Below, piece after piece: positions 16,781-64,000 of a stretch of DNA of 64,000 nt. Source of the stretch: Lingula anatina (lineage: Eukaryota; Animalia; Brachiopoda); contig CM120647.1 of assembly GCA_051362555.1 (NCBI GenBank), positions 1,240,001-1,304,000 of the forward strand, given 5' to 3'. The position numbers and the translations under genes were made by a program. How positions within the stretch are numbered: the stretch's first letter is position 1; each line of letters begins with the position of its first letter. The notes beneath the pieces were generated by a model. It was given only the letters and a program-made list of their open reading frames with translations, searched no databases and had not been told where the DNA came from.

Positions 16781-16821
<41 letters not shown>

Positions 16822-18091: not shown

Positions 18092-18127
<36 letters not shown>

Positions 18128-23138: not shown

Positions 23139-23177
<39 letters not shown>

Positions 23178-32879: not shown

Positions 32880-33665
32880 CATTGTATTCTATTCCTGGAT
32901 CAGAACACTACCCCCACTATTCTTTTTAGAATACTTTTCTTTAAAAAGGAGAAAACAGACTCATTGGATTTGTAAATAGTTAAACTGAAATATAATCATT
33001 GTTTAAATCCTTACTTTTGTGTAAACTATATGGTCAGCAGGATTAGTAAATAAGGATCTCAGCAATTAATATCTATTTTACAATAACTATCCTAATACAA
33101 GTTTCTGTATAATTGAGTTCTCAATAAACATGCATTCTCAATAAACATGAGTTTTAACCCCCCCCCCCTACGTTCACCCCCTTGCTTCACTCAATCTTAA
33201 GTGATTCGACCAAATGCTCGGCTGTTTTTAGAAAAAAAATCAATCTAAATACGTTTTGAAGTATAGTCCTTGTTATAGGCGTATACACTGTGCTTGAATG
33301 TTGAATGTAATTTCTTTGCCTTCTTTTTCCCTAAAAAGCGTTCTGTATTTTGAAGAAATTAAGTGGTGAAATGTACAGCGTCTCTTCAAAGAAACTAAAC
33401 GTGTCTTCTTCTATTGGGGTATGACGTTTTGACCTTTCATGCCGATGTCTTTATCACAAAGCTTGATCACGTGGCTTGCTTTGTTTGCTTTATTCTCTAC
33501 ATTCTACCACATTTTCCCACAATATGTGTAGCCATTTGCTCTCAAAATTTAAGGGCGGTGACGATAGCTAGTAAAATGAATAGATATCCCGTGGGGGAGT
33601 GTTCACGTGGGTCGGTCATATTTGAACCTCGAACTAGTTAGTCCACTATTCTGAATGGAGCCTTA

Positions 33666-33879
33666 GACCCCATTCCCAGAGTTAGATCGATCCAAACTAG
33701 ATCGATCCAACTCCCTGGGGGTTCACGCTAAATAGCTGTCAGCCGAGCAGGCACGAAAGTTAATTACCCCATAACAGCTTGTAGTAGGCGGGACGGACAT
33801 TTAAGCCGGATTATCTGACAGTGATCGAGTGAGACTCCCCGCGGGGATAGATCGATCTAAAATCTCTGGGAATACAGCC
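33666..33879. mobile_element. Harbinger-like MITE (copy 4)
   Basis: GACCCCATTCCCAGAG / CTCTGGGAATACAGCC, with TTA on both flanks. Confidence 0.8.
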
Positions 33880-36190: not shown

Positions 36191-36915
36191 TTAGCTGAAA
36201 ACCTCCAGGCAAGGGGTATATAAAACCAAATGGTCGTCCTTGACATTGGAAAGTTTACCACATTTTGCCTGTTCTTTAATGTATATCTCCGCGTAGTTGA
36301 TTACCTCAGCGGAGGGGGTGGAGATTTTCCCGTTATCCCTGAGGACCTGCAGCAAGGCCGCCACAGCGCCAGTCACAAACGGAGCCGCCATGGAGGTCCC
36401 GCTCATGGTAGTGCTTCCATATTTGTTCCAATGGGATGCGGCTGTGATAGATTCACCCGGGGCGTATAAGTCTACACAAGGGCCTAGATTACTAAATCCC
36501 GCCCTTTCGTAATTGGCGTTAAACGCCCCGACAGTGAGGGAAGCCGCGCTGCTAGCTGGAGAGAAATCACAAGCGTCGCTAGCATAGTCATTTCCGGCTG
36601 CGACAACCACGGGGATTCCTGCTTCAATGACGTCATCGACTGCGTCGTTCAAAACCCGGTTATACGGCCCGCCAATACTGAGGTTAACGACAGAGAGGCG
36701 TCCACTCTTTTTCACTCTTTGCTCTATCCACAGAAGACTTTGTAATATGCCGGATGTAGGGCACGAGTAGTCGCAAATCTTTAGAGAAATGATGTTGGCC
36801 TGCTTTGCCACCCCATATTTCTCTCCCCCGATGATACTTGCCACGTGGGTACCATGGCCGTTGCTGTCCACACTTGTCGATGTCGGCCAGCCTGGAGACA
36901 CAGAAAACATTGGTA

Positions 36916-36946
<31 letters not shown>

Positions 36947-43628: not shown

Positions 43629-43843
43629 CACCCCATTCTCATAGATTAGATCGACCTACATTGGATCGACCTAACTCCCTGGGGGTTCACGCTAAATAGC
43701 TGTCAGCCGGGCGGACACGAAAGTTAATTACCCCTTAAAGCTTGTAGTAGGCGGGGACGGACACTTAAGGGGGATTATCTGACAGTAATCTAGTGAGACT
43801 CCCCGCGGTGATAGATCGATCTAAAAGTTGTGAGAACAGAGCC
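43629..43843. mobile_element. Harbinger-like MITE (copy 5)
   Basis: Homologous to 33666-33879 along its length. Confidence 0.75.
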
Positions 43844-45124
43844 ATATACTAACCGCAATACCCCAACTAATCCTAACCTGTACTACTTTCATTCCTAGGA
43901 CTACCATTCCTGTCACACTGAAATCAGAATAGATTTATAGGCATTTGACTTTTAATGAACAATAACTAGAACGTTATTCATCAATTTGGGCATTAGTCAC
44001 ATCATACATTATGCACTTAAAGGAGTCGGGGTGCTTAAAATAAAAATTATAATAACGTTTATTTGTAACTAAAGGTACTTGGATTGTACAATTATTTGTA
44101 AATTGAGGGATATATTTATAAGAACATTAAGGCGCCTAATTATTACGTACAACCCAGCTGCCGTATGGACCGCTGTAACCTAACATGCCAAGTTTCTCTG
44201 TCAGACAACGAACCCTGCTTCAACCCCCAAGTGCTGAGTGCCAAGCGAGGAACCAGGAGGTAACGTATTATTTTCAAGTGTTTAATTACTGGTGCGTTTG
44301 CAGCCATGGGAATTTTGAGTAAAACATGTTTGGCAAATAATTCCGCCGAGGAGATATCGTTTTTCTACCGAACACGGTGAACAGGTGGTATGACGTGCCT
44401 CATCCGGGACTCGAACCCATGACTTTGCGTTACCAAGGTTGATGACGCTTTGGATGTCTCATATGCATCCATGCACGCTACCGACTGCTCCGTGACTGAC
44501 CCGCCCACCCTCCGTACGTGCGAGTTTCCTCTTATACTAATCAATCGCAATTTTTAAAAAAATAATTCTGGCAAAAACATTGACACCGTAGCTGCTGTGA
44601 CTCGAACCGGCGTCCCAGTGTCTGCTGGCTGGCAAGACAGCAGAGTTACCACGCAGCCACGACAGCTCCGTTGACACGAAATCATCGGATGGAAACTTTC
44701 AACCTCGTCACGGAAAGCGCCAGATTGGGTGTACGTGTGTAGACCTGCTGTCGCAATCGATAATCCGGGTGCCAATACTGGAAAGGAGGGGCATAATAAG
44801 ACAAAATGTGTGCCTGATAAAAGGAGTAGAGGTGACGCGACTTTTGTAAAAAATCAAAAGTTTTCTCTCTGCTAATCCCACCAAAAAGAGAGCAGATTTT
44901 GATGAAATGCAAGCCATACGGAGTTAGTTATATCTGTGACACCAATATAAAGACTTTTAACTGAAGAGAAAGGAAATAAAATTGTCGACGCAGATGTAAA
45001 CTTTCTAAAGTATACCGTATTATTATGCAAAAGGTAATTTGCTAGGTCCCACGAGCGCCCTCACTCGTTCTCTTCTAGTGACATCCCGATTCAGGGGCCA
45101 GGTCGTTGTCGTGATGGACTGACG

Positions 45125-45230
45125 TGCCTCATCCGGGACTCGAACCCATGACTTTGCGTTACCAAGGTTGATGACGCTTTGGATGTCTCATATGCATCCA
45201 TGCACGCTACCGACTGCTCCGTGACTGACC
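45125..45230 (-). ncRNA. tRNA-like Pol III element (module 1; representative copy, one per unit, 14 copies)
   Basis: A-box-like CGGAGCAGTCGGTAGCG, B box GGTTCGA(G/A)TCC within a T-arm hairpin, and two hairpins between them. TATAAG upstream (~45261-45266); first TTTT at 45032-45029. No canonical acceptor stem. Confidence 0.55.
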
Positions 45231-45301
45231 CGCCCACCCTCCGTACGTGCGAGTTTCCTCTTATACTAATCAATCGCAATTTTTAAAAAAATAATTCTGG
45301 C

Positions 45302-45398
45302 AAAAACATTGACACCGTAGCTGCTGTGACTCGAACCGGCGTCCCAGTGTCTGCTGGCTGGCAAGACAGCAGAGTTACCACGCAGCCACGACAGCTCC
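45302..45398 (-). ncRNA. ~97-nt Pol III panhandle RNA candidate, vault-RNA-like topology (module 2; representative copy, one per unit, 14 copies, one disrupted)
   Basis: A box TGGCTGCGTGG at +11, B box GGTTCGAGTC, TTTTT terminator. The A-box arm pairs with the sequence in and 3' of the B box (17 bp with two bulges); there are two internal hairpins. Confidence 0.55.
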
Positions 45399-48300
45399 GT
45401 TGACACGAAATCATCGGATGGAAACTTTCAACCTCGTCACGGAAAGCGCCAGATTGGGTGTACGTGTGTAGACCTGCTGTCGCAATCGATAATCCGGGTG
45501 CCGCATTTCAGCCCACGCAACCCCAGTCCTCGACATGAACGGTTAAGTTCGTGATGTACACGAAGTCGTGTTTGACAACCCGACTCGGAGCTCGGAGTTT
45601 GTTCTACACTAAGATTGATTTTGGCTTTACCCATGTTATTAAAGAGTACAGGGGGATCAGAGGCGGTGCACAACAGGCGGGTGGGTTTTACTTTTAGCGA
45701 GACCATAAGAGGAGAGAATAAAGAAAAATGACAAAACATTCAAGTGTTTAATTACTGGTGCGATTGCAGCCATGGGAATTTTGAGTAAAACATGTTTGGC
45801 AAATAATTCCGCCGAGGAGATATCGTTTTTGTACCGAACACGCTGAACAGGTGGTATGACGTGCTGTTATACGGCCGGCCGGAAAAGCTACAGAATTAAA
45901 ACAAGTTGGATCGTATTCATTGATAGGCCTGCTCTGTACGTTCCTAGTGGGATGACTTCGGATGCTTTTATTTTCATTTGGTTTTGCATTGAGATAACGT
46001 TTGGTTTCACCTTTGACGTTTTAGAGCACGCTGACGTCCACAGCCGTTCACCCCTCAGCGGCTTTAGTATTGAGTAGTCTTTACTCTTTCCAATGTCGAC
46101 TGCGGACTTGCCCCTGGTACCGTATGAACATATGTACAGTCTTGAGAACCCAGGGCCCAAGACTGGAAAGGAGGGGCATAATAAGACAAAACGTGTGCCT
46201 GATAAAAGGAGTAGAGATGACGCGACTTTTGTAAAAAATCAAAAGTTTTCTCTCTGCTAATCCCACCAAAAAGATAGCATATTTTGATGAAATGCAAGCC
46301 ATACGGAGTTAGTTATATCTGTGACACCAATATAAAGAATTTTAACTGAAGAGAAAGGAAATAAAATTATCGACGCAGATGTAAATTTTCTAAAGAATAC
46401 CGTATTATTATGCAAAAGGTAATTTGCTAGGTCCCACGAGCGCCCTCATTCGTTCTCGTCTAGTGACATCCCGATTCAGGGGCCAGGTCGTTGTCGTGAT
46501 GGACTGACGTGCCTCATCCGGGATTCGAACCCGTGACTTTGCGTTACCAAGGTTGGTGACGCTTTGGATGTCTCATTTGCATTCATGCACTCTACCGACT
46601 GCTCCGTGACTGACCCGCCCACCCTCCGTACGTGCCAGTTTCCTCTTATAGTAATCAATCCGCAATTTTTAAAAAATTAATTCTGGCAAAAACATTAACA
46701 TCGTAGCTGCTGTGACTCGAACCGGCGTCCCAGTGTCTGCTGGCTGACAAGACAGCAGAGTTACCACGCAGCCACGACAGCTCCGTTGACACGATGTCAT
46801 CGGATGGAAACTTTCAACCTCGTCACAGAAAGCGCCAGATTGGGTGTACGTGTGTAGACCTGCTGTCGCAATCGATAATCCGGGTGCCGCATTTCAGCCC
46901 ACGCAACCCCAGTCCTCGACATGAACGGTTAAGTTCGTGATGTACACGAAGTCGTGTTTGACAACCCGACTCGGAGCTCGGAGTTTGTTCTACACTAAGA
47001 TTGATTTTGGCTTTACCCATGTTATTAAAGAGTACAGGGGGATCAGAGGCGGTGCACAACAGGCGGGTGGGTTTTACTTTTAGCGAGACCATAAGAGGAG
47101 AGAATAAAGAAAAATGACAAAACATTCAAGTGTTTAATTACTGGTGCGATTGCAGCCATGGGAATTTTGAGTAAAACATGTTTGGCAAATAATTCCGCCG
47201 AGGAGATATCGTTTTTGTACCGAACACGCTGAACAGGTGGTATGACGTGCTGTTATACGGCCGGCCGGAAAAGCTACAGAATTAAAACAAGTTGGATCGT
47301 ATTCATTGATAGGCCTGCTCTGTACGTTCCTAGTGGGATGACTTCGGATGCTTTTATTTTCATTTGGTTTTGCATTGAGATAACGTTTGGTTTCACCTTT
47401 GACGTTTTAGAGCACGCTGACGTCCACAGCCGTTCACCCCTCAGCGGCTTTAGTATTGAGTAGTCTTTACTCTTTCCAATGTCGACTGCGGACTTGCCCC
47501 TGGTACCGTATGAACATATGTACAGTCTTGAGAACCCAGGGAAAAATACTGGAAAGGAGGGGCATAATAAGACAAAATGTGTGCCTGATAAAAGGAGTAG
47601 AGGTGACGCGACTTTTGTAAAAAATCAAAAGTTTTCTCTCTGCTAATCCCACCAAAAAGAGAGCAGATTTTGATGAAATGCAAGCCATACGGAGTTACTT
47701 ATATCTGTGACACCAATATAAAGACTTTTAACTGAAGAGAAAGGAAATAAAATTGTCGACGCAGATGTAAACTTTCTAAAGTATACCGTATTATTATGCA
47801 AAAGGTAATTTGCTAGGTCCCACGAGCGCCCTCACTCGTTCTCTTCTAGTGACATCCCGATTCAGGGGCCAGGTCGTTGTCGTGATGGACTGACGTGCCT
47901 CATCCGGGACTCGAACCCATGACTTTGCGTTACCAAGGTTGATGACGCTTTGGATGTCTCATATGCATCCATGCACGCTACCGACTGCTCCGTGACTGAC
48001 CCGCCCACCCTCCGTACGTGCGAGTTTCCTCTTATACTAATCAATCGCAATTTTTAAAAAAATAATTCTGGCAAAAACATTAACACCGTAGCTGCTGTGA
48101 CTCGAACCGGCGTCCCAGTGTCTGCTGGCTGGCAAGACAGCAGAGTTACCACGCAGCCACGACAGCTCCGTTGACACGAAATCATCGGATGGAAACTTTC
48201 AACCTCGTCACGGAAAGCGCCAGATTGGGTGTACGTGTGTAGACCTGCTGTCGCAATCGATAATCCGGGTGCCGCATTTCAGCCCACGCAACCCCAGTCC

Positions 48301-51300
48301 TCGACATGAACGGTTAAGTTCGTGATGTACACGAAGTCGTGTTTGACAACCCGACTCGGAGCTCGGAGTTTGTTCTACACTAAGATTGATTTTGGCTTTA
48401 CCCATGTTATTAAAGAGTACAGGGGGATCAGAGGCGGTGCACAACAGGCGGGTGGGTTTTACTTTTAGCGAGACCATAAGAGGAGAGAATAAAGAAAAAT
48501 GACAAAACATTCAAGTGTTTAATTACTGGTGCGATTGCAGCCATGGGAATTTTGAGTAAAACATGTTTGGCAAATAATTCCGCCGAGGAGATATCGTTTT
48601 TGTACCGAACACGCTGAACAGGTGGTATGACGTGCTGTTATACGGCCGGCCGGAAAAGCTACAGAATTAAAACAAGTTGGATCGTATTCATTGATAGGCC
48701 TGCTCTGTACGTTCCTAGTGGGATGACTTCGGATGCTTTTATTTTCATTTGGTTTTGCATTGAGATAACGTTTGGTTTCACCTTTGACGTTTTAGAGCAC
48801 GCTGACGTCCACAGCCGTTCACCCCTCAGCGGCTTTAGTATTGAGTAGTCTTTACTCTTTCCAATGTCGACTGCGGACTTGCCCCTGGTACCGTATGAAC
48901 ATATGTACAGTCTTGAGAACCCAGGGCCCAAGACTGGAAAGGAGGGGCATAATAAGACAAAACGTGTGCCTGATAAAAGGAGTAGAGATGACGCGACTTT
49001 TGTAAAAAATCAAAAGTTTTCTCTCTGCTAATCCCACCAAAAAGATAGCATATTTTGATGAAATGCAAGCTATACGGAGTTAGTTATATCTGTGACACCA
49101 ATATAAAGAATTTTAACTGAAGAGAAAGGAAATAAAATTATCGACGCAGATGTAAATTTTCTAAAGAATACCGTATTATTATGCAAAAGGTAATTTGCTA
49201 GGTCCCACGAGCGCCCTCATTCGTTCTCGTCTAGTGACATCCCGATTCAGGGGCCAGGTCGTTGTCGTGATGGACTGACGTGCCTCATCCGGGATTCGAA
49301 CCCGTGACTTTGCGTTACCAAGGTTGGTGACGCTTTGGATGTCTCATTTGCATTCATGCACTCTACCGACTGCTCCGTGACTGACCCGCCCACCCTCCGT
49401 ACGTGCCAGTTTCCTCTTATAGTAATCAATCCGCAATTTTTAAAAAATTAATTCTGGCAAAAACATTAACATCGTAGCTGCTGTGACTCGAACCGGCGTC
49501 CCAGTGTCTGCTGGCTGACAAGACAGCAGAGTTACCACGCAGCCACGACAGCTCCGTTGACACGATGTCATCGGATGGAAACTTTCAACCTCGTCACAGA
49601 AAGCGCCAGATTGGGTGTACGTGTGTAGACCTGCTGTCGCAATCGATAATCCGGGTGCCGCATTTCAGCCCACGCAACCCCAGTCCTCGACATGAACGGT
49701 TAAGTTCGTGATGTACACGAAGTCGTGTTTGACAACCCGACTCGGAGCTCGGAGTTTGTTCTACACTAAGATTGATTTTGGCTTTACCCATGTTATTAAA
49801 GAGTACAGGGGGATCAGAGGCGGTGCACAACAGGCGGGTGGGTTTTACTTTTAGCGAGACCATAAGAGGAGAGAATAAAGAAAAATGACAAAACATTCAA
49901 GTGTTTAATTACTGGTGCGATTGCAGCCATGGGAATTTTGAGTAAAACATGTTTGGCAAATAATTCCGCCGAGGAGATATCGTTTTTGTACCGAACACGC
50001 TGAACAGGTGGTATGACGTGCTGTTATACGGCCGGCCGGAAAAGCTACAGAATTAAAACAAGTTGGATCGTATTCATTGATAGGCCTGCTCTGTACGTTC
50101 CTAGTGGGATGACTTCGGATGCTTTTATTTTCATTTGGTTTTGCATTGAGATAACGTTTGGTTTCACCTTTGACGTTTTAGAGCACGCTGACGTCCACAG
50201 CCGTTCACCCCTCAGCGGCTTTAGTATTGAGTAGTCTTTACTCTTTCCAATGTCGACTGCGGACTTGCCCCTGGTACCGTATGAACATATGTACAGTCTT
50301 GAGAACCCAGGGAAAAATACTGGAAAGGAGGGGCATAATAAGACAAAACGTGTGCCTGATAAAAGGAGTAGAGGTGACGCGACTTTTGTAAAAAATCAAA
50401 AGTTTTCTCTCTGCTAATCCCACCAAAAAGAGAGCAGATTTTGATGAAATGCAAGCCATACGGAGTTAGTTATATCTGTGACACCAATATAAAGAATTTT
50501 AACTGAAGAGAAAGGAAATAAAATTATCGACGCAGATGTAAATTTTCTAAAGAATACCGTATTATTATGCAAAAGGTAATTTGCTAGGTCCCACGAGCGC
50601 CGTCATTCGTTCTCGTCTAGTGACATCCCGATTCAGGGGCCAGGTCGTTGTCGTGATGGACTGACGTGCCTCATCCGGGATTCGAACCCGTGACTTTGCG
50701 TTACCAAGGTTGGTGACGCTTTGGATGTCTCATTTGCATTCATGCACTCTACCGACTGCTCCGTGACTGACCCGCCCACCCTCCGTACGTGCCAGTTTCC
50801 TCTTATAGTAATCAATCCGCAATTTTTAAAAAATTAATTCTGGCAAAAACATTAACATCGTAGCTGCTGTGACTCGAACCGGCGTCCCAGTGTCTGCTGG
50901 CTGACAAGACAGCAGAGTTACCACGCAGCCACGACAGCTCCGTTGACACGATGTCATCGGATGGAAACTTTCAACCTCGTCACAGAAAGCGCCAGATTGG
51001 GTGTACATGTGTAGACCTGCTGTCGCAATCGATAATCCTGGTGCCGCATTTCAGCCCACGCAACCCCAGTCCTCGACATGAACGGTTAAGTTCGTGATGT
51101 ACACGAAGTCGTGTTTGACAACCCGAGTCGGAGCTCGGAGTTTGTTCTACACTAAGATTGATTTTGGCTTTACCCATGTTATTAAAGAGTACAGGGGGAT
51201 CAGAGGCGGTGCACAACAGGCGGGTGGGTTTTACTTTTAGCGAGACCATAAGAGGAGAGAATAAAGAAAAATGACAAAACATTCAAGTGTTTAATTACTG

Positions 51301-54300
51301 GTGCGATTGCAGCCATGGGAATTTTGAGTAAAACATGTTTGGCAAATAATTCCGCCGAGGAGATATCGTTTTTGTACCGAACACGCTGAACAGGTGGTAT
51401 GACGTGCTGTTATACGGCCGGCCGGAAAAGCTACAGAATTAAAACAAGTTGGATCGTATTCATTGATAGGCCTGCTCTGTACGTTCCTAGTGGGATGACT
51501 TCGGATGCTTTTATTTTCATTTGGTTTTGCATTGAGATAACGTTTGGTTTCACCTTTGACGTTTTAGAGCACGCTGACGTCCACAGCCGTTCACCCCTCA
51601 GCGGCTTTAGTATTGAGTAGTCTTTACTCTTTCCAATGTCGACTGCGGACTTGCCCCTGGTACCGTATGAACATATGTACAGTCTTGAGAACCCAGGGAA
51701 AAATACTGGAAAGGAGGGGCATAATAAGACAAAACGTGTGCCTGATAAAAGGAGTAGAGGTGACGCGACTTTTGTAAAAAATCAAAAGTTTTCTCTCTGC
51801 TAATCCCACCAAAAAGAGAGCAGATTTTGATGAAATGCAAGCCATACGGAGTTAGTTATATCTGTGACACCAATATAAAGAATTTTAACTGAAGAGAAAG
51901 GAAATAAAATTATCGACGCAGATGTAAATTTTCTAAAGAATACCGTATTATTATGCAAAAGGTAATTTGCTAGGTCCCACGAGCGCCGTCATTCGTTCTC
52001 GTCTAGTGACATCCCGATTCAGGGGCCAGGTCGTTGTCGTGATGGACTGACGTGCCTCATCCGGGATTCGAACCCGTGACTTTGCGTTACCAAGGTTGGT
52101 GACGCTTTGGATGTCTCATTTGCATTCATGCACTCTACCGACTGCTCCGTGACTGACCCGCCCACCCTCCGTACGTGCCAGTTTCCTCTTATAGTAATCA
52201 ATCCGCAATTTTTAAAAAATTAATTCTGGCAAAAACATTAACATCGTAGCTGCTGTGACTCGAACCGGCGTCCCAGTGTCTGCTGGCTGACAAGACAGCA
52301 GAGTTACCACGCAGCCACGACAGCTCCGTTGACACGATGTCATCGGATGGAAACTTTCAACCTCGTCACAGAAAGCGCCAGATTGGGTGTACATGTGTAG
52401 ACCTGCTGTCGCAATCGATAATCCTGGTGCCGCATTTCAGCCCACGCAACCCCAGTCCTCGACATGAACGGTTAAGTTCGTGATGTACACGAAGTCGTGT
52501 TTGACAACCCGAGTCGGAGCTCGGAGTTTGTTCTACACCAAGATTGATTTTGGCTTTACCCATGTTATTAAAGAGTACAGGGGGATCAGAGGCGGTGCAC
52601 AACAGGCGGGTTTTACTTTTAGCGGGACCATAAGATGAGAGAATAAAAAAAAAATACAAAACATTCAAGTGTTTAATTACTGGTGCGATTGCAGTCTTGG
52701 GAATTTTGAGTTAAACATATTTGGCAAATAATTCCGCCGAGGAGATATCGTTTTTGTACCGCACACGGTTAACAAGTGGTATGACGTGCTGTTATACGGC
52801 CGGCCGGAAAAGCTACAGAATTAAAACAAGTTGGATCGTATTCATTGATAGGCCTGCTCTGTACGTTCCTAGTGATATGACTTCGGATGCTTTTATTTTC
52901 ATTTGGTTTTGCATTGAGATAACGTTTGGTTTCACCTTTGACGTTTTAGAGCACGCTGACGTCCACAGCCGTTCACACCTCGGCGGCTTTAGTATTGAGT
53001 AGTCTTTACTCTTTCCAATGTCGACTTCGTACTTGCCCCGGGTACCGTATGAACATATGAACAGTCTTGAGAACCCAGGGCCCAATACTGGAAAGGAGGG
53101 GCATAATAAGACAAAATGTGTGCCTGATAAAAGGAGTAGAGGTGACGCGAATTTTGTAAAAAATCAAAAGTTTTCTCTCTGCTAATCCCACCAAAAAGAG
53201 AGCAGATTTTGATGAAATGCAAGCCATACGGAGTTACTTATATCTGTGACACCAATATAAAGACTTTTAACTGAAGAGAAAGGAAATAAAATTGTCGACG
53301 CAGATGTAAACTTTCTAAAGTATACCGTATTATTATGCAAAAGGTAATTTGCTAGGTCCCACGAGCGCCCTCACTCGTTCTCTTCTAGTGACATCCCGAT
53401 TCAGGGGCCAGGTCGTTGTCGTGATGGACTGACGTGCCTCATCCGGGACTCGAACCCATGACTTTGCGTTACCAAGGTTGATGACGCTTTGGATGTCTCA
53501 TATGCATCCATGCACGCTACCGACTGCTCCGTGACTGACCCGCCCACCCTCCGTACGTGCGAGTTTCCTCTTATACTAATCAATCGCAATTTTTAAAAAA
53601 ATAATTCTGGCAAAAACATTGACACCGTAGCTGCTGTGACTCGAACCGGCGTCCCAGTGTCTGCTGGCTGGCAAGACAGCAGAGTTACCACGCAGCCACG
53701 ACAGCTCCGTTGACACGATGTCATCGGATGGAAACTTTCAACCTCGTCACGGAAAGCGCCAGATTGGGTGTACGTGTGTAGACCTGCTGTCGCAATCGAT
53801 AATCCGGGTGCCGCATTTCAGCCCACGCAACCCCAGTCCTCGACATGAACGGTTAAGTTCGTGATGTACACGAAGTCGTGTTTGACAACCCGACTCGGAG
53901 CTCGGAGTTTGTTCTACACTAAGATTGATTTTGGCTTTACCCATGTTATTAAAGAGTACAGGGGGATCAGAGGCGGTGCACAACAGGCGGGTGGGTTTTA
54001 CTTTTAGCGAGACCATAAGAGGAGAGAATAAAGAAAAATGACAAAACATTCAAGTGTTTAATTACTGGTGCGATTGCAGCCATGGGAATTTTGAGTAAAA
54101 CATGTTTGGCAAATAATTCCGCCGAGGAGATATCGTTTTTGTACCGAACACGCTGAACAGGTGGTATGACGTGCTGTTATACGGCCGGCCGGAAAAGCTA
54201 CAGAATTAAAACAAGTTGGATCGTATTCATTGATAGGCCTGCTCTGTACGTTCCTAGTGATATGACTTCGGATGCTTTTATTTTCATTTGGTTTTGCATT

Positions 54301-56458
54301 GAGATAACGTTTGGTTTCACCTTTGACGTTTTAGAGCACGCTGACGTCCACAGCCGTTCACACCTCGGCGGCTTTAGTATTGAGTAGTCTTTACTCTTTC
54401 CAATGTCGACTTCGTACTTGCCCCGGGTACCGTATGAACATATGAACAGTCTTGAGAACCCAGGGCCCAATACTGGAAAGGAGGGGCATAATAAGACAAA
54501 ATGTGTGCCTGATAAAAGGAGTAGAGGTGACGCGAATTTTGTAAAAAATCAAAAGTTTTCTCTCTGCTAATCCCACCAAAAAGAGAGCAGATTTTGATGA
54601 AATGCAAGCCATACGGAGTTACTTATATCTGTGACACCAATATAAAGACTTTTAACTGAAGAGAAAGGAAATAAAATTGTCGACGCAGATGTAAACTTTC
54701 TAAAGTATACCGTATTATTATGCAAAAGGTAATTTGCTAGGTCCCACGAGCGCCCTCACTCGTTCTCTTCTAGTGACATCCCGATTCAGGGGCCAGGTCG
54801 TTGTCGTGATGGACTGACGTGCCTCATCCGGGACTCGAACCCATGACTTTGCGTTACCAAGGTTGATGACGCTTTGGATGTCTCATATGCATCCATGCAC
54901 GCTACCGACTGCTCCGTGACTGACCCGCCCACCCTCCGTACGTGCGAGTTTCCTCTTATACTAATCAATCGCAATTTTTAAAAAAATAATTCTGGCAAAA
55001 ACATTGACACCGTAGCTGCTGTGACTCGAACCGGCGTCCCAGTGTCTGCTGGCTGGCAAGACAGCAGAGTTACCACGCAGCCACGACAGCTCCGTTGACA
55101 CGATGTCATCGGATGGAAACTTTCAACCTCGTCACGGAAAGCGCCAGATTGGGTGTACGTGTGTAGACCTGCTGTCGCAATCGATAATCCGGGTGCCGCA
55201 TTTCAGCCCACGCAACCCCAGTCCTCGACATGAACGGTTAAGTTCGTGATGTACACGAAGTCGTGTTTGACAACCCGACTCGGAGCTCGGAGTTTGTTCT
55301 ACAGTAAGATTGATTTTGGCTTTACCCATGTTATTAAAGAGTACAGGGGGATCAGAGGCGGTGCACAACAGGCGGGTGGGTTTTACTTTTAGCGAGACCA
55401 TAAGAGGAGAGAATAAAGAAAAATGACAAAACATTCAAGTGTTTAATTACTGGTGCGATTGCAGCCATGGGAATTTTGAGTAAAACATGTTTGGCAAATA
55501 ATTCCGCCGAGGAGATATCGTTTTTGTACCGAACACGCTGAACAGGTGGTATGACGTGCTGTTATACGGCCGGCCGGAAAAGCTACAGAATTAAAACAAG
55601 TTGGATCGTATTCATTGATAGGCCTGCTCTGTACGTTCCTAGTGGGATGACTTCGGATGCTTTTATTTTCATTTGGTTTTGCATTGAGATAACGTTTGGT
55701 TTCACCTTTGACGTTTTAGAGCACGCTGACGTCCACAGCCGTTCACCCCTCAGCGGCTTTAGTATTGAGTAGTCTTTACTCTTTCCAATGTCGACTGCGG
55801 ACTTGCCCCTGGTACCGTATGAACATATGTACAGTCTTGAGAACCCAGGGCCCAAGACTGGAAAGGAGGGGCATAATAAGACAAAACGTGTGCCTGATAA
55901 AAGGAGTAGAGATGACGCGACTTTTGTAAAAAATCAAAAGTTTTCTCTCTGCTAATCCCACCAAAAAGATAGCATATTTTGATGAAATGCAAGCCATACG
56001 GAGTTAGTTATATCTGTGACACCAATATAAAGAATTTTAACTGAAGAGAAAGGAAATAAAATTATCGACGCAGATGTAAATTTTCTAAAGAATACCGTAT
56101 TATTATGCAAAAGGTAATTTGCTAGGTCCCACGAGCGCCCTCATTCGTTCTCGTCTAGTGACATCCCGATTCAGGGGCCAGGTCGTTGTCGTGATGGACT
56201 GACGTGCCTCATCCGGGATTCGAACCCGTGACTTTGCGTTACCAAGGTTGGTGACGCTTTGGATGTCTCATTTGCATTCATGCACTCTACCGACTGCTCC
56301 GTGACTGACCCGCCCACCCTCCGTACGTGCCAGTTTCCTCTAATAGTAATCAATCCGCAATTTTTAAAAAATTAATTCTGGCAAAAACATTAACATCGTA
56401 GCTGCTGTGACTCGAACCGGCGTCCCAGTGTCTGCTGGCTGACAAGACAGCAGAGTTA

Positions 56459-57387
56459 TATGGGCGGCGGTTTATACAAAAATGCAAAACACGATTAGTC
56501 GTCATCGCTATCAGATCAGAAGGCAAAATACGACTAGTAGTCGTCAAAACGCAACTAGTCATCAAAACGCAACTAGTCATCAAAACGCAACTAGTCATCA
56601 TCAAAACGCAACTTGTCATCATCAAAACGCAACTAGTCATCATCAAAACGCAACTTGTCATCAAAACGCGATTTGACGCCAGATGGCGCCCATTGTACGA
56701 AAATCTAGGCCAAGTCACATGATCCACAGTGATCAAAATGGCGGACGTTATTGAAGCAGCATTATCATATTCCTAGCTCGAACTCGAGAATTATCTCGAG
56801 TTCGAGATATTATTATATATATAATATCATTATTAGATTGTACGCGTAGAGATAATTCTCGAAATAATAAATAATTAAATAATTTATTAAATAATTTGGA
56901 CATGTTATAAATTAAAAAAAAAAACAAAAACACACACTTGTGAAGCACTGCTTTATTGTTGTACTCATTTCACAAGTTCCAGATATTATTATATATATAA
57001 TATCATTATTAGATTGTACGCGTAGAGATAATTCTCGAGTTCGAGCGAGGAATATGATAATGCTGCTTCAATAACGTCCGCCATTTTGATCACTGTGGAT
57101 CATGTGACTTGGCCTAGATTTTCGTACAATGGGCGCCATCTGGCGTCAAATCGCGTTTTGATGACAAGTTGCGTTTTGATGATGACTAGTTGCGTTTTGA
57201 TGATGACAAGTTGCGTTTTGATGATGACTAGTTGCGTTTTGATGACTAGTTGCGTTTTGACGACTACTAGTCGTATTTTGCCTTCTGATCTGATAACGAC
57301 GACGACTAATCGTGTTTTCATTTCGACTGATCTGATAACGATGACGACTAATCGTGTTTTGCATTTTTGTATAAACCGCCGCCCATA
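56459..57387. mobile_element. 929-bp foldback-type non-autonomous DNA transposon, IS3EU-like, inserted in an array unit
   Basis: Ends TATGGGCGGCGGTTTATACAAAAATGC / GCATTTTTGTATAAACCGCCGCCCATA. Imperfect TIRs of ~340 bp contain 18/21-bp CAAAACGCAACTAGTCAT repeats. 6-bp TSD GAGTTA (56453-56458, 57388-57393); the empty site is visible in all other units. Confidence 0.92.
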
Positions 57388-60300
57388 GAGTTACCACGCA
57401 GCCACGACAGCTCCGTTGACACGATGTCATCGGATGGAAACTTTCAACCTCGTCACAGAAAGCGCCAGATTGGGTGTACATGTGTAGATCTGCTGTCGCA
57501 ATCGATAATCCTGGTGCCGCATTTCAGCCCACGCAACCCCAGTCCTCGACATGAACGGTTAAGTTCGTGATGTACACGAAGTCGTGTTTGACAACCCGAG
57601 TCGGAGCTCGGAGTTTGTTCTACTCTAAGATTGATTTTGGCTTTACCCATGTTATTAAAGAGTACAGGGGGATCAGAGGCGGTGCACAACAGGCGGGTGG
57701 GTTTTACTTTTAGCGAGACCATAAGAGGAGAGAATAAAGAAAAATGACAAAACATTCAAGTGTTTAATTACTGGTGCGATTGCAGCCATGGGAATTTTGA
57801 GTAAAACATGTTTGGCAAATAATTCCGCCGAGGAGATATCGTTTTTGTACCGAACACGCTGAACAGGTGGTATGACGTGCTGTTATACGGCCGGCCGGAA
57901 AAGCTACAGAATTAAAACAAGTTGGATCGTATTCATTGATAGGCCTGCTCTGTACGTTCCTAGTGGGATGACTTCGGATGCTTTTATTTTCATTTGGTTT
58001 TGCATTGAGATAACGTTTGGTTTCACCTTTGACGTTTTAGAGAACGCTGACGTCCACAGCCGTTCACCCCTCAGCGGCTTTAGTATTGAGTAGTCTTTAC
58101 TCTTTCCAATGTCGACTTCGTACTTGCCCCGTATGAACATATGAACAGTCTTGAGAACCCAGGGCCCAAGACTGGAAAGGAGGGGCATAATAAGACAAAA
58201 TGTGTGCCTGATAAAAGGAGTAGAGGTGACGCGACTTTTGTAAAAAATCAAAAGTTTTCTCTCTGCTAATCCCACCAAAAAGAGAGCAGATTTTGATGAA
58301 ATGCAAGCCATACGGAGTTACTTATATCTGTGACACCAATATAAAGACTTTTAACTGAAGAGAAAGGAAATAAAATTGTCGACGCAGATGTAAACTTTCT
58401 AAAGTATACCGTATTATTATGCAAAAGGTAATTTGCTAGGTCCCACGAGCGCCCTCACTCGTTCTCTTCTAGTGACATCCCGATTCAGGGGCCAGGTCGT
58501 TGTCGTGATGGACTGACGTGCCTCATCCGGGACTCGAACCCATGACTTTGCGTTACCAAGGTTGATGACGCTTTGGATGTCTCATATGCATCCATGCACG
58601 CTACCGACTGCTCCGTGACTGACCCGCCCACCCTCCGTACGTGCGAGTTTCCTCTTATACTAATCAATCGCAATTTTTAAAAAAATAATTCTGGCAAAAA
58701 CATTGACACCGTAGCTGCTGTGACTCGAACCGGCGTCCCAGTGTCTGCTGGCTGGCAAGACAGCAGAGTTACCACGCAGCCACGACAGCTCCGTTGACAC
58801 GAAATCATCGGATGGAAACTTTCAACCTCGTCACGGAAAGCGCCAGATTGGGTGTACGTGTGTAGACCTGCTGTCGCAATCGATAATCCGGGTGCCGCAT
58901 TTCAGCCCACGCAACCCCAGTCCTCGACATGAACGGTTAAGTTCGTGATGTACACGAAGTCGTGTTTGACAACCCGAGTCGGAGCTCGGAGTTTGTTCTA
59001 CACCAAGATTGATTTTGGCTTTACCCATGTTATTAAAGAGTACAGGGGGATCAGAGGCGGTGCACAACAGGCGGGTTTTACTTTTAGCGGGACCATAAGA
59101 TGAGAGAATAAAAAAAAAAATACAAAACATTCAAGTGTTTAATTACTGGTGCGATTGCAGTCTTGGGAATTTTGAGTTAAACATATTTGGCAAATAATTC
59201 CGCCTAGGAGATATCGTTTTTCTACCGCACACGGTTAACAAGTGGTATGACGTGCTGTTATACGGCCGGCCGGAAAAGCTACAGAATTAAAACAAGTTGG
59301 ATCGTATTCATTGATAGGCCTGCTCTGTACGTTCCTAGTGATATGACTTCGGATGCTTTTATTTTCATTTGGTTTTGCATTGAGATAACGTTTGGTTTCA
59401 CCTTTGACGTTTTAGAGCACGCTGACGTCCACAGCCGTTCACACCTCGGCGGCTTTAGTATTGAGTAGTCTTTACTCTTTCCAATGTCGACTTCGTACTT
59501 GCCCCGGGTACCGTATGAACATATGAACAGTCTTGAGAACCCAGGGCCCAATACTGGAAAGGAGGGGCATAATAAGACAAAATGTGTGCCTGATAAAAGG
59601 AGTAGAGGTGACGCGACTTTTGTAAAAAATCAAAAGTTTTCTCTCTGCTAATCCCACCAAAAAGAGAGCAGATTTTGATGAAATGCAAGCCATACGGAGT
59701 TACTTATATCTGTGACACCAATATAAAGACTTTTAACTGAAGAGAAAGGAAATAAAATTGTCGACGCAGATGTAAACTTTCTAAAGTATACCGTATTATT
59801 ATGCAAAAGGTAATTTGCTAGGTCCCACGAGCGCCCTCACTCGTTCTCTTCTAGTGACATCCCGATTCAGGGGCCAGGTCGTTGTCGTGATGGACTGACG
59901 TGCCTCATCCGGGACTCGAACCCATGACTTTGCGTTACCAAGGTTGATGACGCTTTGGATGTCTCATATGCATCCATGCACGCTACCGACTGCTCCGTGA
60001 CTGACCCGCCCACCCTCCGTACGTGCGAGTTTCCTCTTATACTAATCAATCGCAATTTTTAAAAAAATAATTCTGGCAAAAACATTGACACCGTAGCTGC
60101 TGTGACTCGAACCGGCGTCCCAGTGTCTGCTGGCTGGCAAGACAGCAGAGTTACCACGCAGCCACGACAGCTCCGTTGACACGAAATCATCGGATGGAAA
60201 CTTTCAACCTCGTCACGGAAAGCGCCAGATTGGGTGTACGTGTGTAGACCTGCTGTCGCAATCGATAATCCGGGTGCCGCATTTCAGCCCACGCAACCCC

Positions 60301-63300
60301 AGTCCTCGACATGAACGGTTAAGTTCGTGATGTACACGAAGTCGTGTTTGACAACCCGACTCGGAGCTCGGAGTTTGTTCTACACTAAGATTGATTTTGG
60401 CTTTACCCATGTTATTAAAGAGTACAGGGGGATCAGAGGCGGTGCACAACAGGCGGGTGGGTTTTACTTTTAGCGAGACCATAAGAGGAGAGAATAAAGA
60501 AAAATGACAAAACATTCAAGTGTTTAATTACTGGTGCGATTGCAGCCATGGGAATTTTGAGTTAAACATATTTGGCAAATAATTCCGCCGAGGAGATATC
60601 GTTTTTGTACCGAACAAGCTGAACAGGTGGTATGACGTGCTGTTATACGGCCGGCCGGAAAAGCTACAGAATTAAAACAAGTTGGATCGTATTCATTGAT
60701 AGGCCTGCTCTGTACGTTCCTAGTGGGATGACTTCGGATGCTTTTATTTTCATTTGGTTTTGCATTGAGATAACGTTTGGTTTCACCTTTGACGTTTTAG
60801 AGCACGCTGACGTCCACAGCCGTTCACCCCTCAGCGGCTTTAGTATTGAGTAGTCTTTACTCTTTCCAATGTCGACTGCGGACTTGCCCCTGGTACCGTA
60901 TGAACATATGTACAGTCTTGAGAACCCAGGGCCCAAGACTGGAAAGGAGGGGCATAATAAGACAAAACGTGTGCCTGATAAAAGGAGTAGAGATGACGCG
61001 ACTTTTGTAAAAAATCAAAAGTTTTCTCTCTGCTAATCCCACCAAAAAGATAGCATATTTTGATGAAATGCAAGCCATACGGAGTTAGTTATATCTGTGA
61101 CACCAATATAAAGAATTTTAACTGAAGAGAAAGGAAATAAAATTATCGACGCAGATGTAAATTTTCTAAAGAATACCGTATTATTATGCAAAAGGTAATT
61201 TGCTAGGTCCCACGAGCGCCGTCATTCGTTCTCGTCTAGTGACATCCCGATTCAGGGGCCAGGTCGTTGTCGTGATGGACTGACGTGCCTCATCCGGGAT
61301 TCGAACCCGTGACTTTTCGTTACCAAGGTTGGTGACGCTTTGGATGTCTCATTTGCATCCATGCACTCTACCGACTGCTCCGTGACTGACCCGCCCACCC
61401 TCCGTACGTGCCAGTTTCCTCTTATAGTAATCAATCCGCAATTTTTAAAAAATTAATTCTGGCAAAAACATTAACATCGTAGCTGCTGTGACTCGAACCG
61501 GCGTCCCAGTGTCTGCTGGCTGACAAGACAGCAGAGTTACCACGCAGCCACGACAGCTCCGTTGACACGATGTCATCGGATGGAAACTTTCAACCTCGTC
61601 AAGGAGAGCGCCAGATTGGGTGTACATGTGTAGACCTGCTGTCGCAATCGATAATCCTGGTGCCGCATTTCAGCCCACGCAACCCCAGTCCTCGACATGA
61701 ACGGTTAAGTTCGTGATGTACACGAAGTCGTGTTTGACAACCCGAGTCGGAGCTCGGAGTTTGTTCTACACCAAGATTGATTTTGGCTTTACCCATGTTA
61801 TTAAAGAGTACAGGGGGATCAGAGGCGGTGCACAACAGGCGGGTTTTACTTTTAGCGGGACCATAAGATGAGAGAATAAAAAAAAAAATACAAAACATTC
61901 AAGTGTTTAATTACTGGTGCGATTGCAGTCTTGGGAATTTTGAGTTAAACATATTTGGCAAATAATTCCGCCTAGGAGATATCGTTTTTCTACCGCACAC
62001 GGTTAACAAGTGGTATGACGTGCTGTTATACGGCCGGCCGGAAAAGCTACAGAATTAAAACAAGTTGGATCGTATTCATTGATAGGCCTGCTCTGTACGT
62101 TCCTAGTGATATGACTTCGGATGCTTTTATTTTCATTTGGTTTTGCATTGAGATAACGTTTGGTTTCACCTTTGACGTTTTAGAGCACGCTGACGTCCAC
62201 AGCCGTTCACACCTCGGCGGCTTTAGTATTGAGTAGTCTTTACTCTTTCCAATGTCGACTTCGTACTTGCCCCGGGTACCGTATGAACATATGAACAGTC
62301 TTGAGAACCCAGGGCCCAATACTGGAAAGGAGGGGCATAATAAGACAAAATGTGTGCCTGATAAAAGGAGTAGAGGTGACGCGACTTTTGTAAAAAATCA
62401 AAAGTTTTCTCTCTGCTAATCCCACCAAAAAGAGAGCAGATTTTGATGAAATGCAAGCCATACGGAGTTACTTATATCTGTGACACCAATATAAAGACTT
62501 TTAACTGAAGAGAAAGGAAATAAAATTGTCGACGCAGATGTAAACTTTCTAAAGTATACCGTATTATTATGCAAAAGGTAATTTGCTAGGTCCCACGAGC
62601 GCCCTCACTCGTTCTCTTCTAGTGACATCCCGATTCAGGGGCCAGGTCGTTGTCGTGATGGACTGACGTGCCTCATCCGGGACTCGAACCCATGACTTTG
62701 CGTTACCAAGGTTGATGACGCTTTGGATGTCTCATATGCATCCATGCACGCTACCGACTGCTCCGTGACTGACCCGCCCACCCTCCGTACGTGCGAGTTT
62801 CCTCTTATACTAATCAATCGCAATTTTTAAAAAAATAATTCTGGCAAAAACATTAACATCGTAGCTGCTGTGACTCGAACCGGCGTCCCAGTGTCTGCTG
62901 GCTGGCAAGACAGCAGAGTTACCACGCAGCCACGACAGCTCCGTTGACACGATGTCATCGGATGGAAACTTTCAACCTCGTCACGGAAAGCGCCAGATTG
63001 GGTGTACGTGTGTAGACCTGCTGTCGCAATCGATAATCCGGGTGCCGCATTTCAGCCCACGCAACCCCAGTCCTCGACATGAACGGTTAAGTTCGTGATG
63101 TACACGAAGTCGTGTTTGACAACCCGACTCGGAGCTCGGAGTTTGTTCTACACTAAGATTGATTTTGGCTTTACCCATGTTATTAAAGAGTACAGGGGGA
63201 TCAGAGGCGGTGCACAACAGGCGGGTGGGTTTTACTTTTAGCGAGACCATAAGAGGAGAGAATAAAGAAAAATGACAAAACATTCAAGTGTTTAATTACT

Positions 63301-64000
63301 GGTGCGATTGCAGTCTTGGGAATTTTGAGTTAAACATATTTGGCAAATAATTCCGCCTAGGAGATATCGTTTTTCTACCGCACACGGTTAACAAGTGGTA
63401 TGACGTGCTGTTATACGGCCGGCCGGAAAAGCTACAGAATTAAAACAAGTTGGATCGTATTCATTGATAGGCCTGCTCTGTACGTTCCTAGTGATATGAC
63501 TTCGGATGCTTTTATTTTCATTTGGTTTTGCATTGAGATAACGTTTGGTTTCACCTTTGACGTTTTAGAGCACGCTGACGTCCACAGCCGTTCACACCTC
63601 GGCGGCTTTAGTATTGAGTAGTCTTTACTCTTTCCAATGTCGACTTCGTACTTGCCCCGGGTACCGTATGAACATATGAACAGTCTTGAGAACCCAGGGC
63701 CCAATACTGGAAAGGAGGGGCATAATAAGACAAAATGTGTGCCTGATAAAAGGAGTAGAGGTGACGCGACTTTTGTAAAAAATCAAAAGTTTTCTCTCTG
63801 CTAATCCCACCAAAAAGAGAGCAGATTTTGATGAAATGCAAGCCATACGGAGTTACTTATATCTGTGACACCAATATAAAGACTTTTAACTGAAGAGAAA
63901 GGAAATAAAATTGTCGACGCAGATGTAAACTTTCTAAAGTATACCGTATTATTATGCAAAAGGTAATTTGCTAGGTCCCACGAGCGCCCTCACTCGTTCT

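What the first reader, a model, noticed from the sequence alone, without database searches (positions are those of the whole stretch)
45302..45398. Tandemly amplified ~97-nt Pol III RNA with vault-RNA-like panhandle
Seen: the minus strand reads GGAGCUGUCGUGGCUGCGUGGUAACUCUGCUGUCUUGCCAGCCAGCAGACACUGGGACGCCGGUUCGAGUCACAGCAGCUACGGUGUCAAUGUUUUU. By eye, nt 8-17 UCGUGGCUGC pair with nt 75-84 GCAGCUACGG, then GUG/CAC and ACUC/GAGU. These close two hairpins, UGCUG/CAGCA and ACUGG-GACG-CCGGU. No T-arm or D-arm forms, so this is not a tRNA. Differences between copies fall in the first loop (GCC/GUC), in the unpaired 3' tail, or turn a U-G pair into U-A. A TGACG half-CRE lies ~40 nt upstream. Known: vault RNAs are ~90-140-nt Pol III transcripts whose A box pairs with the B box region (A box..GGUUACUUCG / CGAGACC) and end in oligo-U; most are described from vertebrates at low copy number. 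Inference: this is an invertebrate vault RNA or a new Pol III RNA class, amplified at least 14-fold in a satellite-like array.
Basis: partly seen in the sequence, partly recalled or inferred. Interest (0 to 1): 0.8.

Follow-up and report, generated by a model that had tools for sequence, protein, structure and literature searches.

The report
Refolded tRNA-like gene in tandem array
Fourteen near-identical copies of a 97-base gene with tRNA-type promoter boxes sit in a tandem array of a likely brachiopod-like animal; it likely descends from a serine-type tRNA, is predicted to have refolded into a vault-RNA-like closed stem and would be a lineage-specific small RNA, but its expression and any tie to vault particles are untested.

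Summary
The sequence and the array are real: 14 copies (13 intact, 1 split by a transposon) in 1.38-1.39-kb tandem units. The vault label is not earned: no Rfam hit (a paper says RF00006 holds mollusc and annelid members), the TTACTTCG flank differs at 3 of 8 bases, and the stem stops short of the U-run. New here: nt 4-83 keep tRNA geometry and align end to end best with tRNA-Ser genes (moderate support). The cloverleaf is gone because the acceptor's 3' strand pairs in a slipped register with the A box: 12 of 12 pairs, against at most 10 in 227 real tRNAs. A read variant with 8 changes keeps the fold. A second, decayed tRNA-like element shares each unit. Seven long-RNA runs show no discrete transcript, which is uninformative for 97 nt. 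Best reading: a tRNA-derived, refolded Pol III RNA gene of the BC1/4.5SI/OAX kind (0.45); dead relic 0.30; true vault RNA 0.18.

The parts
45302..45398 (-). Element 1: 97-nt Pol III-type gene (reference copy); start site inferred, 10 nt before the A box
45316..45395 (-). tRNA-shaped span (nt 4-83): 7 nt before the A box, 52 nt from A-box U8 to B-box G53, 7+1 nt after the T-arm position
45378..45388 (-). A box (nt 11-21)
   Evidence: sequence
45328..45337 (-). B box (nt 62-71)
45379..45391 (-). 5' strand of the predicted closing stem (nt 8-20)
   Evidence: pair probabilities 0.77-0.99
45315..45328 (-). 3' strand of the predicted closing stem (nt 71-84, nt 74 bulged); former T-stem and acceptor 3' strand
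45350..45373 (-). Predicted hairpin 1 (nt 26-49), over the anticodon-arm position
45329..45348 (-). Predicted hairpin 2 (nt 51-70), variable-arm position paired with the B box
   Evidence: 0.66-0.86; 0.84-1.00 in the read variant
45302..45306 (-). T5 terminator
   Evidence: sequence
45285..45291 (-). T7 run, possible back-up terminator
   Evidence: sequence
45435..45439 (-). TGACG half-CRE at -37 to -41 (a 5-mer; weak)
   Evidence: sequence
45110..45228 (-). Element 2: second, decayed tRNA-like unit (A-box-like 45198-45209, B box 45137-45146, T-arm remnant), sharing a 5' block with element 1; no terminator until a T4 at 45029-45032
   Evidence: 6 of 3000 shuffles; type I tRNA profile 16.3 bits, 0 of 500 shuffles
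44274..64000 (.). Tandem array of 1381-1386-bp units, running off the window end; first unit shortened and rearranged (left edge read by eye)
44573..44669 (-). Copy of element 1 (identical)
46688..46784 (-). Copy of element 1 (3 differences; the same type at 49459, 50845, 52231, 61464)
48073..48169 (-). Copy of element 1 (1 difference); further copies at 53612, 54997, 58696, 60078 (identical) and 62846 (2 differences)
56383..57414 (-). Interrupted copy of element 1
56459..57387 (.). Inverted-repeat (MITE-like) insertion just 3' of the A box, with a 6-7-bp target duplication

Best explanation
This is a tandemly repeated gene with tRNA-type A and B boxes and a T5 terminator that likely descends from a long-variable-arm (serine-type) tRNA gene and is predicted to have swapped the cloverleaf for a closed 12-13-bp stem carrying two hairpins, so it would make a stable, lineage-specific ~97-nt Pol III RNA rather than a tRNA. 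Shown: boxes, terminator, 14 copies, loss of acceptor, D and T pairing. Computed: the stem, and that it is more complete than decay of a tRNA gives. Inferred: TFIIIC binds the boxes, Pol III starts about 10 nt before the A box and stops in the T5; the acceptor's 3' strand slips onto the A-box strand, so RNase P, RNase Z and synthetases would find no tRNA fold; La would bind the U tail and the end stem would slow decay, as shown for 4.5SI RNA; the RNA would act as a protein-binding ligand (La or a TROVE protein such as TEP1 or Ro60), with output raised by copy number. The array would have grown by unequal exchange of a 1.39-kb segment that also carries a dead tRNA-like element.
For: Geometry: U8-to-G53 distance 52 nt against 51-59 in 10 type II tRNAs. 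End-to-end alignment to a tRNA-Ser gene 53 of 82 identical, 0 of 3000 box-fixed shuffles; best score over 237 distinct tRNAs reached by 1 of 400 shuffles, the top two hits tRNA-Ser(UGA), still 1 of 400 without the motif-picked locus. Slipped register: 12 of 12 pairs in the element, 1-10 in 227 tRNAs, up to 9 in tRNA-Ser, so the slip is pre-formed in that isotype; all 8 stem columns that differ from the tRNA-Ser proxy keep or create a pair (13 of 200,000 random placements; 5 of 5000 when any register is allowed). Longest 5'-3' helix matched by 4 of 2000 shuffles. A diverged copy in RNA reads with 8 changes in nt 39-83 keeps 22 of 31 pairs and perfects hairpin 2; 31 of 2000 random sets stay as close. 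Among the 40 best-supported read differences none falls in 45361-45403, while 5 fall in 45404-45416 (72 more not shown). Precedents: BC1 from tRNA-Ala (PMC13169703), end-stem stability and tandem 4.5SH genes (PMC3440375), OAX and PolIII/TAN (PMC10702118).
Against: No discrete transcript: 13-49 reads per run over the stretch, no pile-up of ends, lowest depth over the gene (long-RNA libraries, 6-30% of each run read). Whole-RNA stability z -1.06; duplex energy of the two ends matched by 210 of 2000 shuffles. The read variant has more changes in the 3' half (8 in 45 nt), breaks three pairs, shows no double compensatory change, rests on 4 reads from 3 starts in one run, and 516 of 2000 random sets fold as stably. 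tRNA-Ser descent is only moderately supported: p 0.023 once the 5' block is also fixed, p 0.052 over 9 other type II tRNAs; a profile of 93 mostly phage or bacterial tRNA-Ser gives no hit; a 10-sequence model gives 4.1 bits, E 2; a tRNA-Gly scores 62 against 65. The proxy is not the true ancestor. No homolog from another species was found. One of 14 copies is broken by a transposon and kept; element 2 beside it is decayed.
Confidence: 0.45

Rival explanations
1. A dead tRNA pseudogene or tRNA-derived SINE-type head, passively amplified with its neighbours in a satellite-like segment; the stem is a partly pre-formed slip pairing of tRNA-Ser completed by chance, and no functional RNA is made.
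For: No lower variation in the gene than in the spacer; no transcript signal and reads run through the gene on both sides; tRNA-Ser already gives up to 9 of 12 slipped pairs; the unit holds a second decayed tRNA-like element and pieces that match other transcribed repeats (loose ends); an 8-of-9 direct repeat flanks nt 2-83 like a target duplication (45398-45406 and 45307-45315); bivalve V-SINE heads have a similar Ser-type A box and box spacing (by eye, PMC4824008 supplement); a broken copy persists.
Against: Completion of the stem by chance is unlikely (5 of 5000); both boxes and a double terminator are intact; no SINE body or tail follows; the fold survives 8 changes better than random (31 of 2000); the flanking repeat is changed at 45404 in 15 of 21 reads.
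Confidence: 0.3
2. A true but divergent vault RNA gene of a brachiopod-like animal, bound by TEP1 in vault particles and amplified in tandem.
For: Length, A and B boxes, T-run and a stem joining the 5' and 3' regions around a variable centre fit the published description (PMC7058938 section 4, PMC9179338, PMC8824774); a half-CRE lies upstream, and a CRE-like element is reported as conserved (PMC7058938); vault RNAs are hard to find by homology, and the Fasciola candidates are very divergent and clustered (PMC8824774); 5 of 8 bases of the TTACTTCG flank match. From recall only, not tested: the human stem pairs in a similar register relative to the boxes.
Against: No Vault hit at E up to 10 even on a 131-nt stretch, although RF00006 holds Lottia and Helobdella members (PMC8824774); A box plus TTACTTCG matches only with 3 mismatches, a level met by 3 unrelated sites in the window and 6.3 expected by chance; human vtRNA stems close directly on the 4-nt U tail (PMC13692180) whereas here 8 nt (4 in the array variant) stay unpaired before it; the vault-like pairing after the A box has probability 0.04; residual tRNA-Ser likeness suggests a younger origin than an RNA shared by deuterostomes and lophotrochozoans (inference).
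Confidence: 0.18
3. Elements 1 and 2 are the two diverged LTRs of a Helenus-type miniature LTR retrotransposon (tRNA-like sequence inside each LTR), later amplified in tandem.
For: Lingula has three Helenus families, one of 323 bp with 132-bp LTRs, each LTR holding a tRNA-like part followed by a T-run, and tandem arrays occur in zebrafish (PMC10886601); elements 1 and 2 lie about 190 bp apart, share a 5' block and a G-rich tract precedes element 2.
Against: By eye no match to the three Lingula Helenus consensus sequences or to those in supplement parts 6 and 9; three element-1 motifs are absent from the supplement; no primer-binding site after element 1, no 4-bp target duplication, the two parts are far too unlike for paired LTRs, and the TG start is changed in most reads.
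Confidence: 0.05

Closest known systems
Vault RNA (Rfam RF00006)
   Same: 80-150-nt A-box/B-box gene with T-run; stem joining 5' and 3' regions around a variable centre; upstream half-CRE.
   Different: No covariance-model hit; TTACTTCG flank 5 of 8; stem does not close at the U tail; B box predicted in a local hairpin; 14 or more tandem copies; vault binding untested.
BC1 RNA (rodent, tRNA-Ala-derived) and 4.5SI RNA
   Same: tRNA- or SINE-derived Pol III RNA in which the cloverleaf is replaced by a long stem (BC1: PMC13169703 passage and the title of the cited structure paper); end pairing gives stability (4.5SI: PMC3440375).
   Different: Independent origin, serine-type here; no A-rich or unique 3' domain; tandem array instead of one to three genes; expression unproven.
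tRNA-derived tandem Pol III repeats: Xenopus OAX/satellite I, newt PolIII/TAN, Rana/polIII; rodent 4.5SH arrays
   Same: A long tandem unit holding a tRNA- or SINE-related Pol III gene (PMC10702118, PMC3440375).
   Different: Invertebrate host; two tRNA-like elements per unit; a complete slipped-register stem; copy number unknown beyond 14.
Eukaryote-type tRNA-Ser (type II)
   Same: 5' block, A box, box spacing, anticodon-loop position, variable-arm block and 3' end in register (53 of 82 identical to L008).
   Different: Acceptor 4 of 7 pairs, T stem 1 of 5, no D stem; ARAGORN and Rfam negative.
Helenus TRIMs and bivalve V-/Meta-SINE heads
   Same: tRNA-like Pol III promoter in a lophotrochozoan repeat; element 2's 3' part resembles their tRNA-like heads by eye.
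   Different: No LTR pair, PBS or 4-bp duplication; no V, Meta or CORE body or tail after element 1.

Membership tests
Vault RNA (RF00006) | Internal A and B boxes, 80-150 nt, oligo-T terminator | tested here: met
   sequence; definition from PMC8824774 passages
Vault RNA (RF00006) | Panhandle joining 5' and 3' regions around a variable centre | tested here: met
   predicted only: pair probabilities 0.77-0.99; helix length 4 of 2000 shuffles, duplex energy 210 of 2000
Vault RNA (RF00006) | Terminal stem closing directly on the oligo-U tail | tested here: not met
   8 nt unpaired before the U-run in this copy, 4 in the array variant; human architecture from PMC13692180 passages
Vault RNA (RF00006) | A box followed by the TTACTTCG flank (Lottia, Helobdella) | tested here: not met
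   3 mismatches, chance level; motif from PMC8824774
Vault RNA (RF00006) | Match to the Rfam covariance model | tested here: not met
   none at gathering score in 64 kb, none at E up to 10 in 2201 or 131 nt; filters could not be switched off
Vault RNA (RF00006) | Upstream CRE-like element | tested here: inconclusive
   TGACG half-site at -37 to -41 only; the next bases vary among copies
Vault RNA (RF00006) | Expressed as a discrete small RNA | tested here: inconclusive
   7 long-RNA runs, no peak or end pile-up
Vault RNA (RF00006) | Bound by TEP1 / recovered with vaults; MVP and TEP1 in the genome | not testable with these tools
   no genome held; one paper search listed nothing relevant on MVP in Lingula
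Functional tRNA | Cloverleaf (acceptor, D, anticodon, T arms) | tested here: not met
   acceptor 4 of 7, T stem 1 of 5; ARAGORN 0
tRNA-derived sequence (Ser type) | Colinear similarity to tRNA outside the two boxes | tested here: inconclusive
   for: (1 of 400); weaker: (p 0.023-0.052); against:
tRNA-derived tandem Pol III repeats (OAX, PolIII/TAN type) | Long tandem unit holding a tRNA-related A/B-box segment | tested here: met
tRNA-derived tandem Pol III repeats (OAX, PolIII/TAN type) | Pol III transcription of the unit | not testable with these tools
   needs in vitro transcription or ChIP
tRNA-derived SINE | Head followed by a body and a LINE-like or simple-repeat tail | tested here: not met
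   T5 follows 10 nt after the tRNA-like span; no V or Meta body by eye
tRNA-derived SINE | Many dispersed copies with target duplications | tested here: inconclusive
   no copy in the first 44 kb; diverged copies exist but their places are unknown; no genome
Helenus TRIM | Two TG...CA LTRs, PBS, PPT, 4-bp target duplication | tested here: not met
   sequence by eye against PMC10886601

The most novel reading that the evidence does not exclude
This is the vault RNA of a brachiopod lineage, newly recruited from a serine tRNA gene by slipping the acceptor's 3' strand onto the A box, caught while its tRNA ancestry is still readable and amplified in tandem; it would show that vault-type panhandle RNAs can arise, and be replaced, from tRNA genes.
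Probability: 0.15. Interest if true: 0.8.

Novelty: new variant of a known kind. Interest (0 to 1): 0.42.

Why it matters
If expressed and conserved, it would be an invertebrate case of a tRNA gene turned into a new small RNA by a simple register slip, a route so far documented mainly in rodents (BC1) and, as tandem tRNA-derived repeats, in amphibians. Because the product looks like a vault panhandle, it gives a direct test of whether vault RNAs descend from tRNAs and whether TEP1 recognises shape rather than family sequence. If it is silent, it is one more tRNA relic in a satellite, and a warning that A-box/B-box plus panhandle alone does not make a vault RNA.

Tried and rejected
Rfam: no hit for the window, the unit, element 1 or element 2 beyond chance-level rows. 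Homolog searches: 0 in viral contigs; 7 loci in metagenome contigs, 5 of them tRNA-Gly/Val pairs and 2 an unrelated A/B-box element; 0 phage matches for element 1, weak tRNA-Thr matches (E 0.1-4) for element 2. So no cross-species covariation test was possible. No whole genome was held. Profile tests of tRNA-Ser descent were negative or non-significant. The first helix statistic (15 of 3000) was redone with bounded strands (4 of 2000). Helenus TRIM and SINE-with-body readings rejected by eye against printed consensus sequences. Spliced-leader RNA, Y RNA, tRNA-Sec and hammerhead readings were dropped on sequence by eye (no Sm site, no such cores) and on the Rfam blanks. Earlier scan findings: four look-ups returned nothing. 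Stadler 2009, Kolev 2019 and Mosig 2009 were not held, so their invertebrate vault alignments were not seen; file 1 of the PMC4824008 and of the PMC8824774 supplements could not be searched and may bear on the SINE and vault comparisons.

Full report
Observation. BLAST of the 97-mer finds 13 full copies at 96.9-100% identity and one copy split between 56458 and 57387. The split is an insertion of about 929 bp with terminal inverted repeats and a 6-7-bp target duplication, just after the A box. The copies lie in units of 1381-1386 bp, 96.0-99.9% alike, from about 44274 to beyond the window end.

Fold. The MFE is -36.6 kcal/mol, z -1.06, with 26 of 200 shuffles as stable. The outer stem (nt 8-17/75-84 and 18-20/71-73) and hairpin 1 have pair probabilities of 0.77-0.99. 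With both boxes and the T-run held fixed, 4 of 2000 shuffles give as long a helix between the ends, but 210 of 2000 give as low a duplex energy.

Host. The S8 protease exon at 36191-36895 has its nine best hits in Lingula anatina (49-67% identity) among 407 hits, so the host is likely a brachiopod or close relative. No whole genome is held.

Vault test. No Rfam family reaches its gathering score in the window, and no Vault or tRNA row appears at E up to 10 on 2201 or 131 bases. Passages of PMC8824774 state that RF00006 holds Lottia and Helobdella members with an A box followed by TTACTTCG; here that pattern needs 3 mismatches, as do 3 unrelated sites in the window, with 6.3 expected by chance. 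Passages of PMC13692180 say the human terminal stem closes directly on a 4-nt U tail; here 8 nt, or 4 in the array variant, stay open before the U-run. Met features are the boxes, length, terminator, a panhandle and a half-CRE (definitions from PMC7058938 section 4, and PMC9179338 passages). Vault RNAs in lophotrochozoans are already reported (PMC2770079 passage; PMC8824774), and sea-urchin vaults carry an RNA band (PMC550661 passages). It may work like a vault RNA; it is not shown to be one.

tRNA ancestry. Nt 4-83 have tRNA spacing: 52 nt from A-box U8 to B-box G53, against 51-59 in 10 type II tRNAs, 7 nt before the A box and 7+1 nt after the T-arm position, then a 10-nt trailer and T5. A eukaryote-type tRNA-Ser gene fetched with a recalled motif (L008) aligns end to end with 53 of 82 identities, above all 3000 box-fixed shuffles. 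Against 237 distinct tRNAs from 260 loci the two best are tRNA-Ser(UGA) (65, 64.5), followed by a tRNA-Gly (62); 1 of 400 shuffles reaches the best score, with or without L008 (the library is motif-picked and 93 of 237 are Ser). The support weakens under stricter controls: 69 of 3000 when the 5' block is fixed too, 52 of 1000 for the mean over the 9 other type II tRNAs. A profile of 93 tRNA-Ser gives no hit and a 10-sequence model aligns positions 4-70 colinearly at only 4.1 bits, E 2. I rate tRNA descent likely and the Ser isotype moderately likely.

The slip. In tRNA register the acceptor keeps 4 of 7 pairs and the T stem 1 of 5. In the slipped register, where the acceptor's 3' strand meets the A-box strand, the element forms 12 of 12 pairs; 227 tRNAs that could be anchored form 1-10, and tRNA-Ser up to 9. 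Eight stem columns differ from L008 and all eight keep or create a pair; 13 of 200,000 random placements do so, and 5 of 5000 reach 11 Watson-Crick pairs when any register is allowed. L008 is a proxy, not the ancestor, so these figures are indicative.

Reads. Nine same-species long-RNA runs were offered and seven laid. They give 13-32 reads per run over 1361 nt at 90% and 26-49 over 571 nt at 80%, on both strands, mostly under 95% identical, with no place where many molecules start or end, and the least depth over the gene. Such libraries lose 97-nt RNAs, so this neither shows nor excludes expression. It does show diverged, also tandem, relatives of the unit (junction reads). Four reads from three starts in X7 span the gene with 8 changes in nt 39-83; one X8 read shares 3. 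The variant keeps 22 of 31 pairs, closes the mismatch in hairpin 2 and shifts the inner stem by one base; 31 of 2000 random sets stay as close in structure, 52 keep as many pairs, 516 are as stable, 14 meet both distance and energy. No change is doubly compensatory. None of the 40 listed differences falls in 45361-45403; 72 were not shown.

Element 2. Each unit holds a second B box at 45137-45146. Its 3' half matches a type I tRNA profile (16.3 bits, 0 of 500 shuffles) and weakly phage tRNA-Thr; its 5' end shares a block with element 1 (6 of 3000 shuffles). It has no convincing fold (z -0.38 and 0.03), no near terminator, and varies in reads. It looks like a decayed tRNA-like or SINE-type head. 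A Helenus TRIM reading was checked against PMC10886601 (main text parts 1-4 of 6, supplement parts 6 and 9 and searches) and a SINE reading against PMC4824008 (passages, supplement file 2 parts 1-2): no match by eye, no PBS, no body.

Mechanism and comparison. Most likely TFIIIC-directed Pol III transcription gives a ~97-nt RNA whose slipped stem hides the tRNA ends from processing and protects it from decay, acting through bound proteins; all of this is inferred. Precedents: BC1 from tRNA-Ala (PMC13169703 passage); end-stem stability of 4.5SI and 700-800 tandem 4.5SH genes (PMC3440375 passages); OAX, PolIII/TAN and Rana/polIII tandem repeats with tRNA-related parts (PMC10702118 passage). None of ten paper searches (listings only unless named above) listed a title on a brachiopod vault RNA or on this element, but three key vault papers were not held. 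PMC7904556 and PMC12547018 were read as passages only and added nothing decisive.

Verdict. Real, ordinary in kind, unusual in detail: a new variant of tRNA-derived tandem Pol III genes with a well-formed vault-like stem. Live refolded RNA 0.45, dead relic 0.30, true vault RNA 0.18, TRIM 0.05. Interest 0.42.

Noticed in passing
L003 862-935 (+) and L005 1490-1563 (-), two metagenome contigs: A non-tRNA A-box/B-box element followed by a T-run, predicted to fold with the A-box strand paired to the B-box region (z -1.56); no Rfam hit over it. Vault-like by layout, unrelated to the window's element.
   Followed up: partly
window 56459-57387: Non-coding inverted-repeat element of about 929 bp with internal 21/42-bp subrepeats and a 6-7-bp target duplication, inserted in one array copy.
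   Followed up: partly
window 45398-45406 and 45307-45315: An 8-of-9 direct repeat flanks nt 2-83 of element 1, ending at the tRNA discriminator position, like a target duplication; weakened by variation in reads and array copies.
   Followed up: partly
window 44274-45119: The first array unit is rearranged: two deletions relative to the full unit, one at an 8-bp microhomology (by eye).
   Followed up: partly
window 2128-2349, 9745-9977, 13358-13509, 33665-33885, 43630-43846: A dispersed repeat family of about 220 bp, 78-87% alike, in both orientations.
   Followed up: no
window 12844-25219 (-): Exons with frizzled and LDL-receptor class A domains, likely one corin-like membrane protein gene.
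   Followed up: no
window 36191-37357 (-): Subtilase (S8) gene whose closest relatives are an expanded Lingula set, then fungal and bacterial proteases at about 50%.
   Followed up: partly
window 45241-45264 (-): A TATA-like hexamer about 30-35 nt before element 2 (by eye), overlapping a 20-nt chance-level match to group II intron domain V (E 0.56).
   Followed up: no
window 44150-44273: A stretch at the array's left edge that resembles, from recall only, the reverse strand of a lophotrochozoan SINE body.
   Followed up: no
L008 50-128 (-): A eukaryote-type tRNA-Ser(UGA) of 79 nt with a shortened anticodon stem in a 65-kb viral contig.
   Followed up: no
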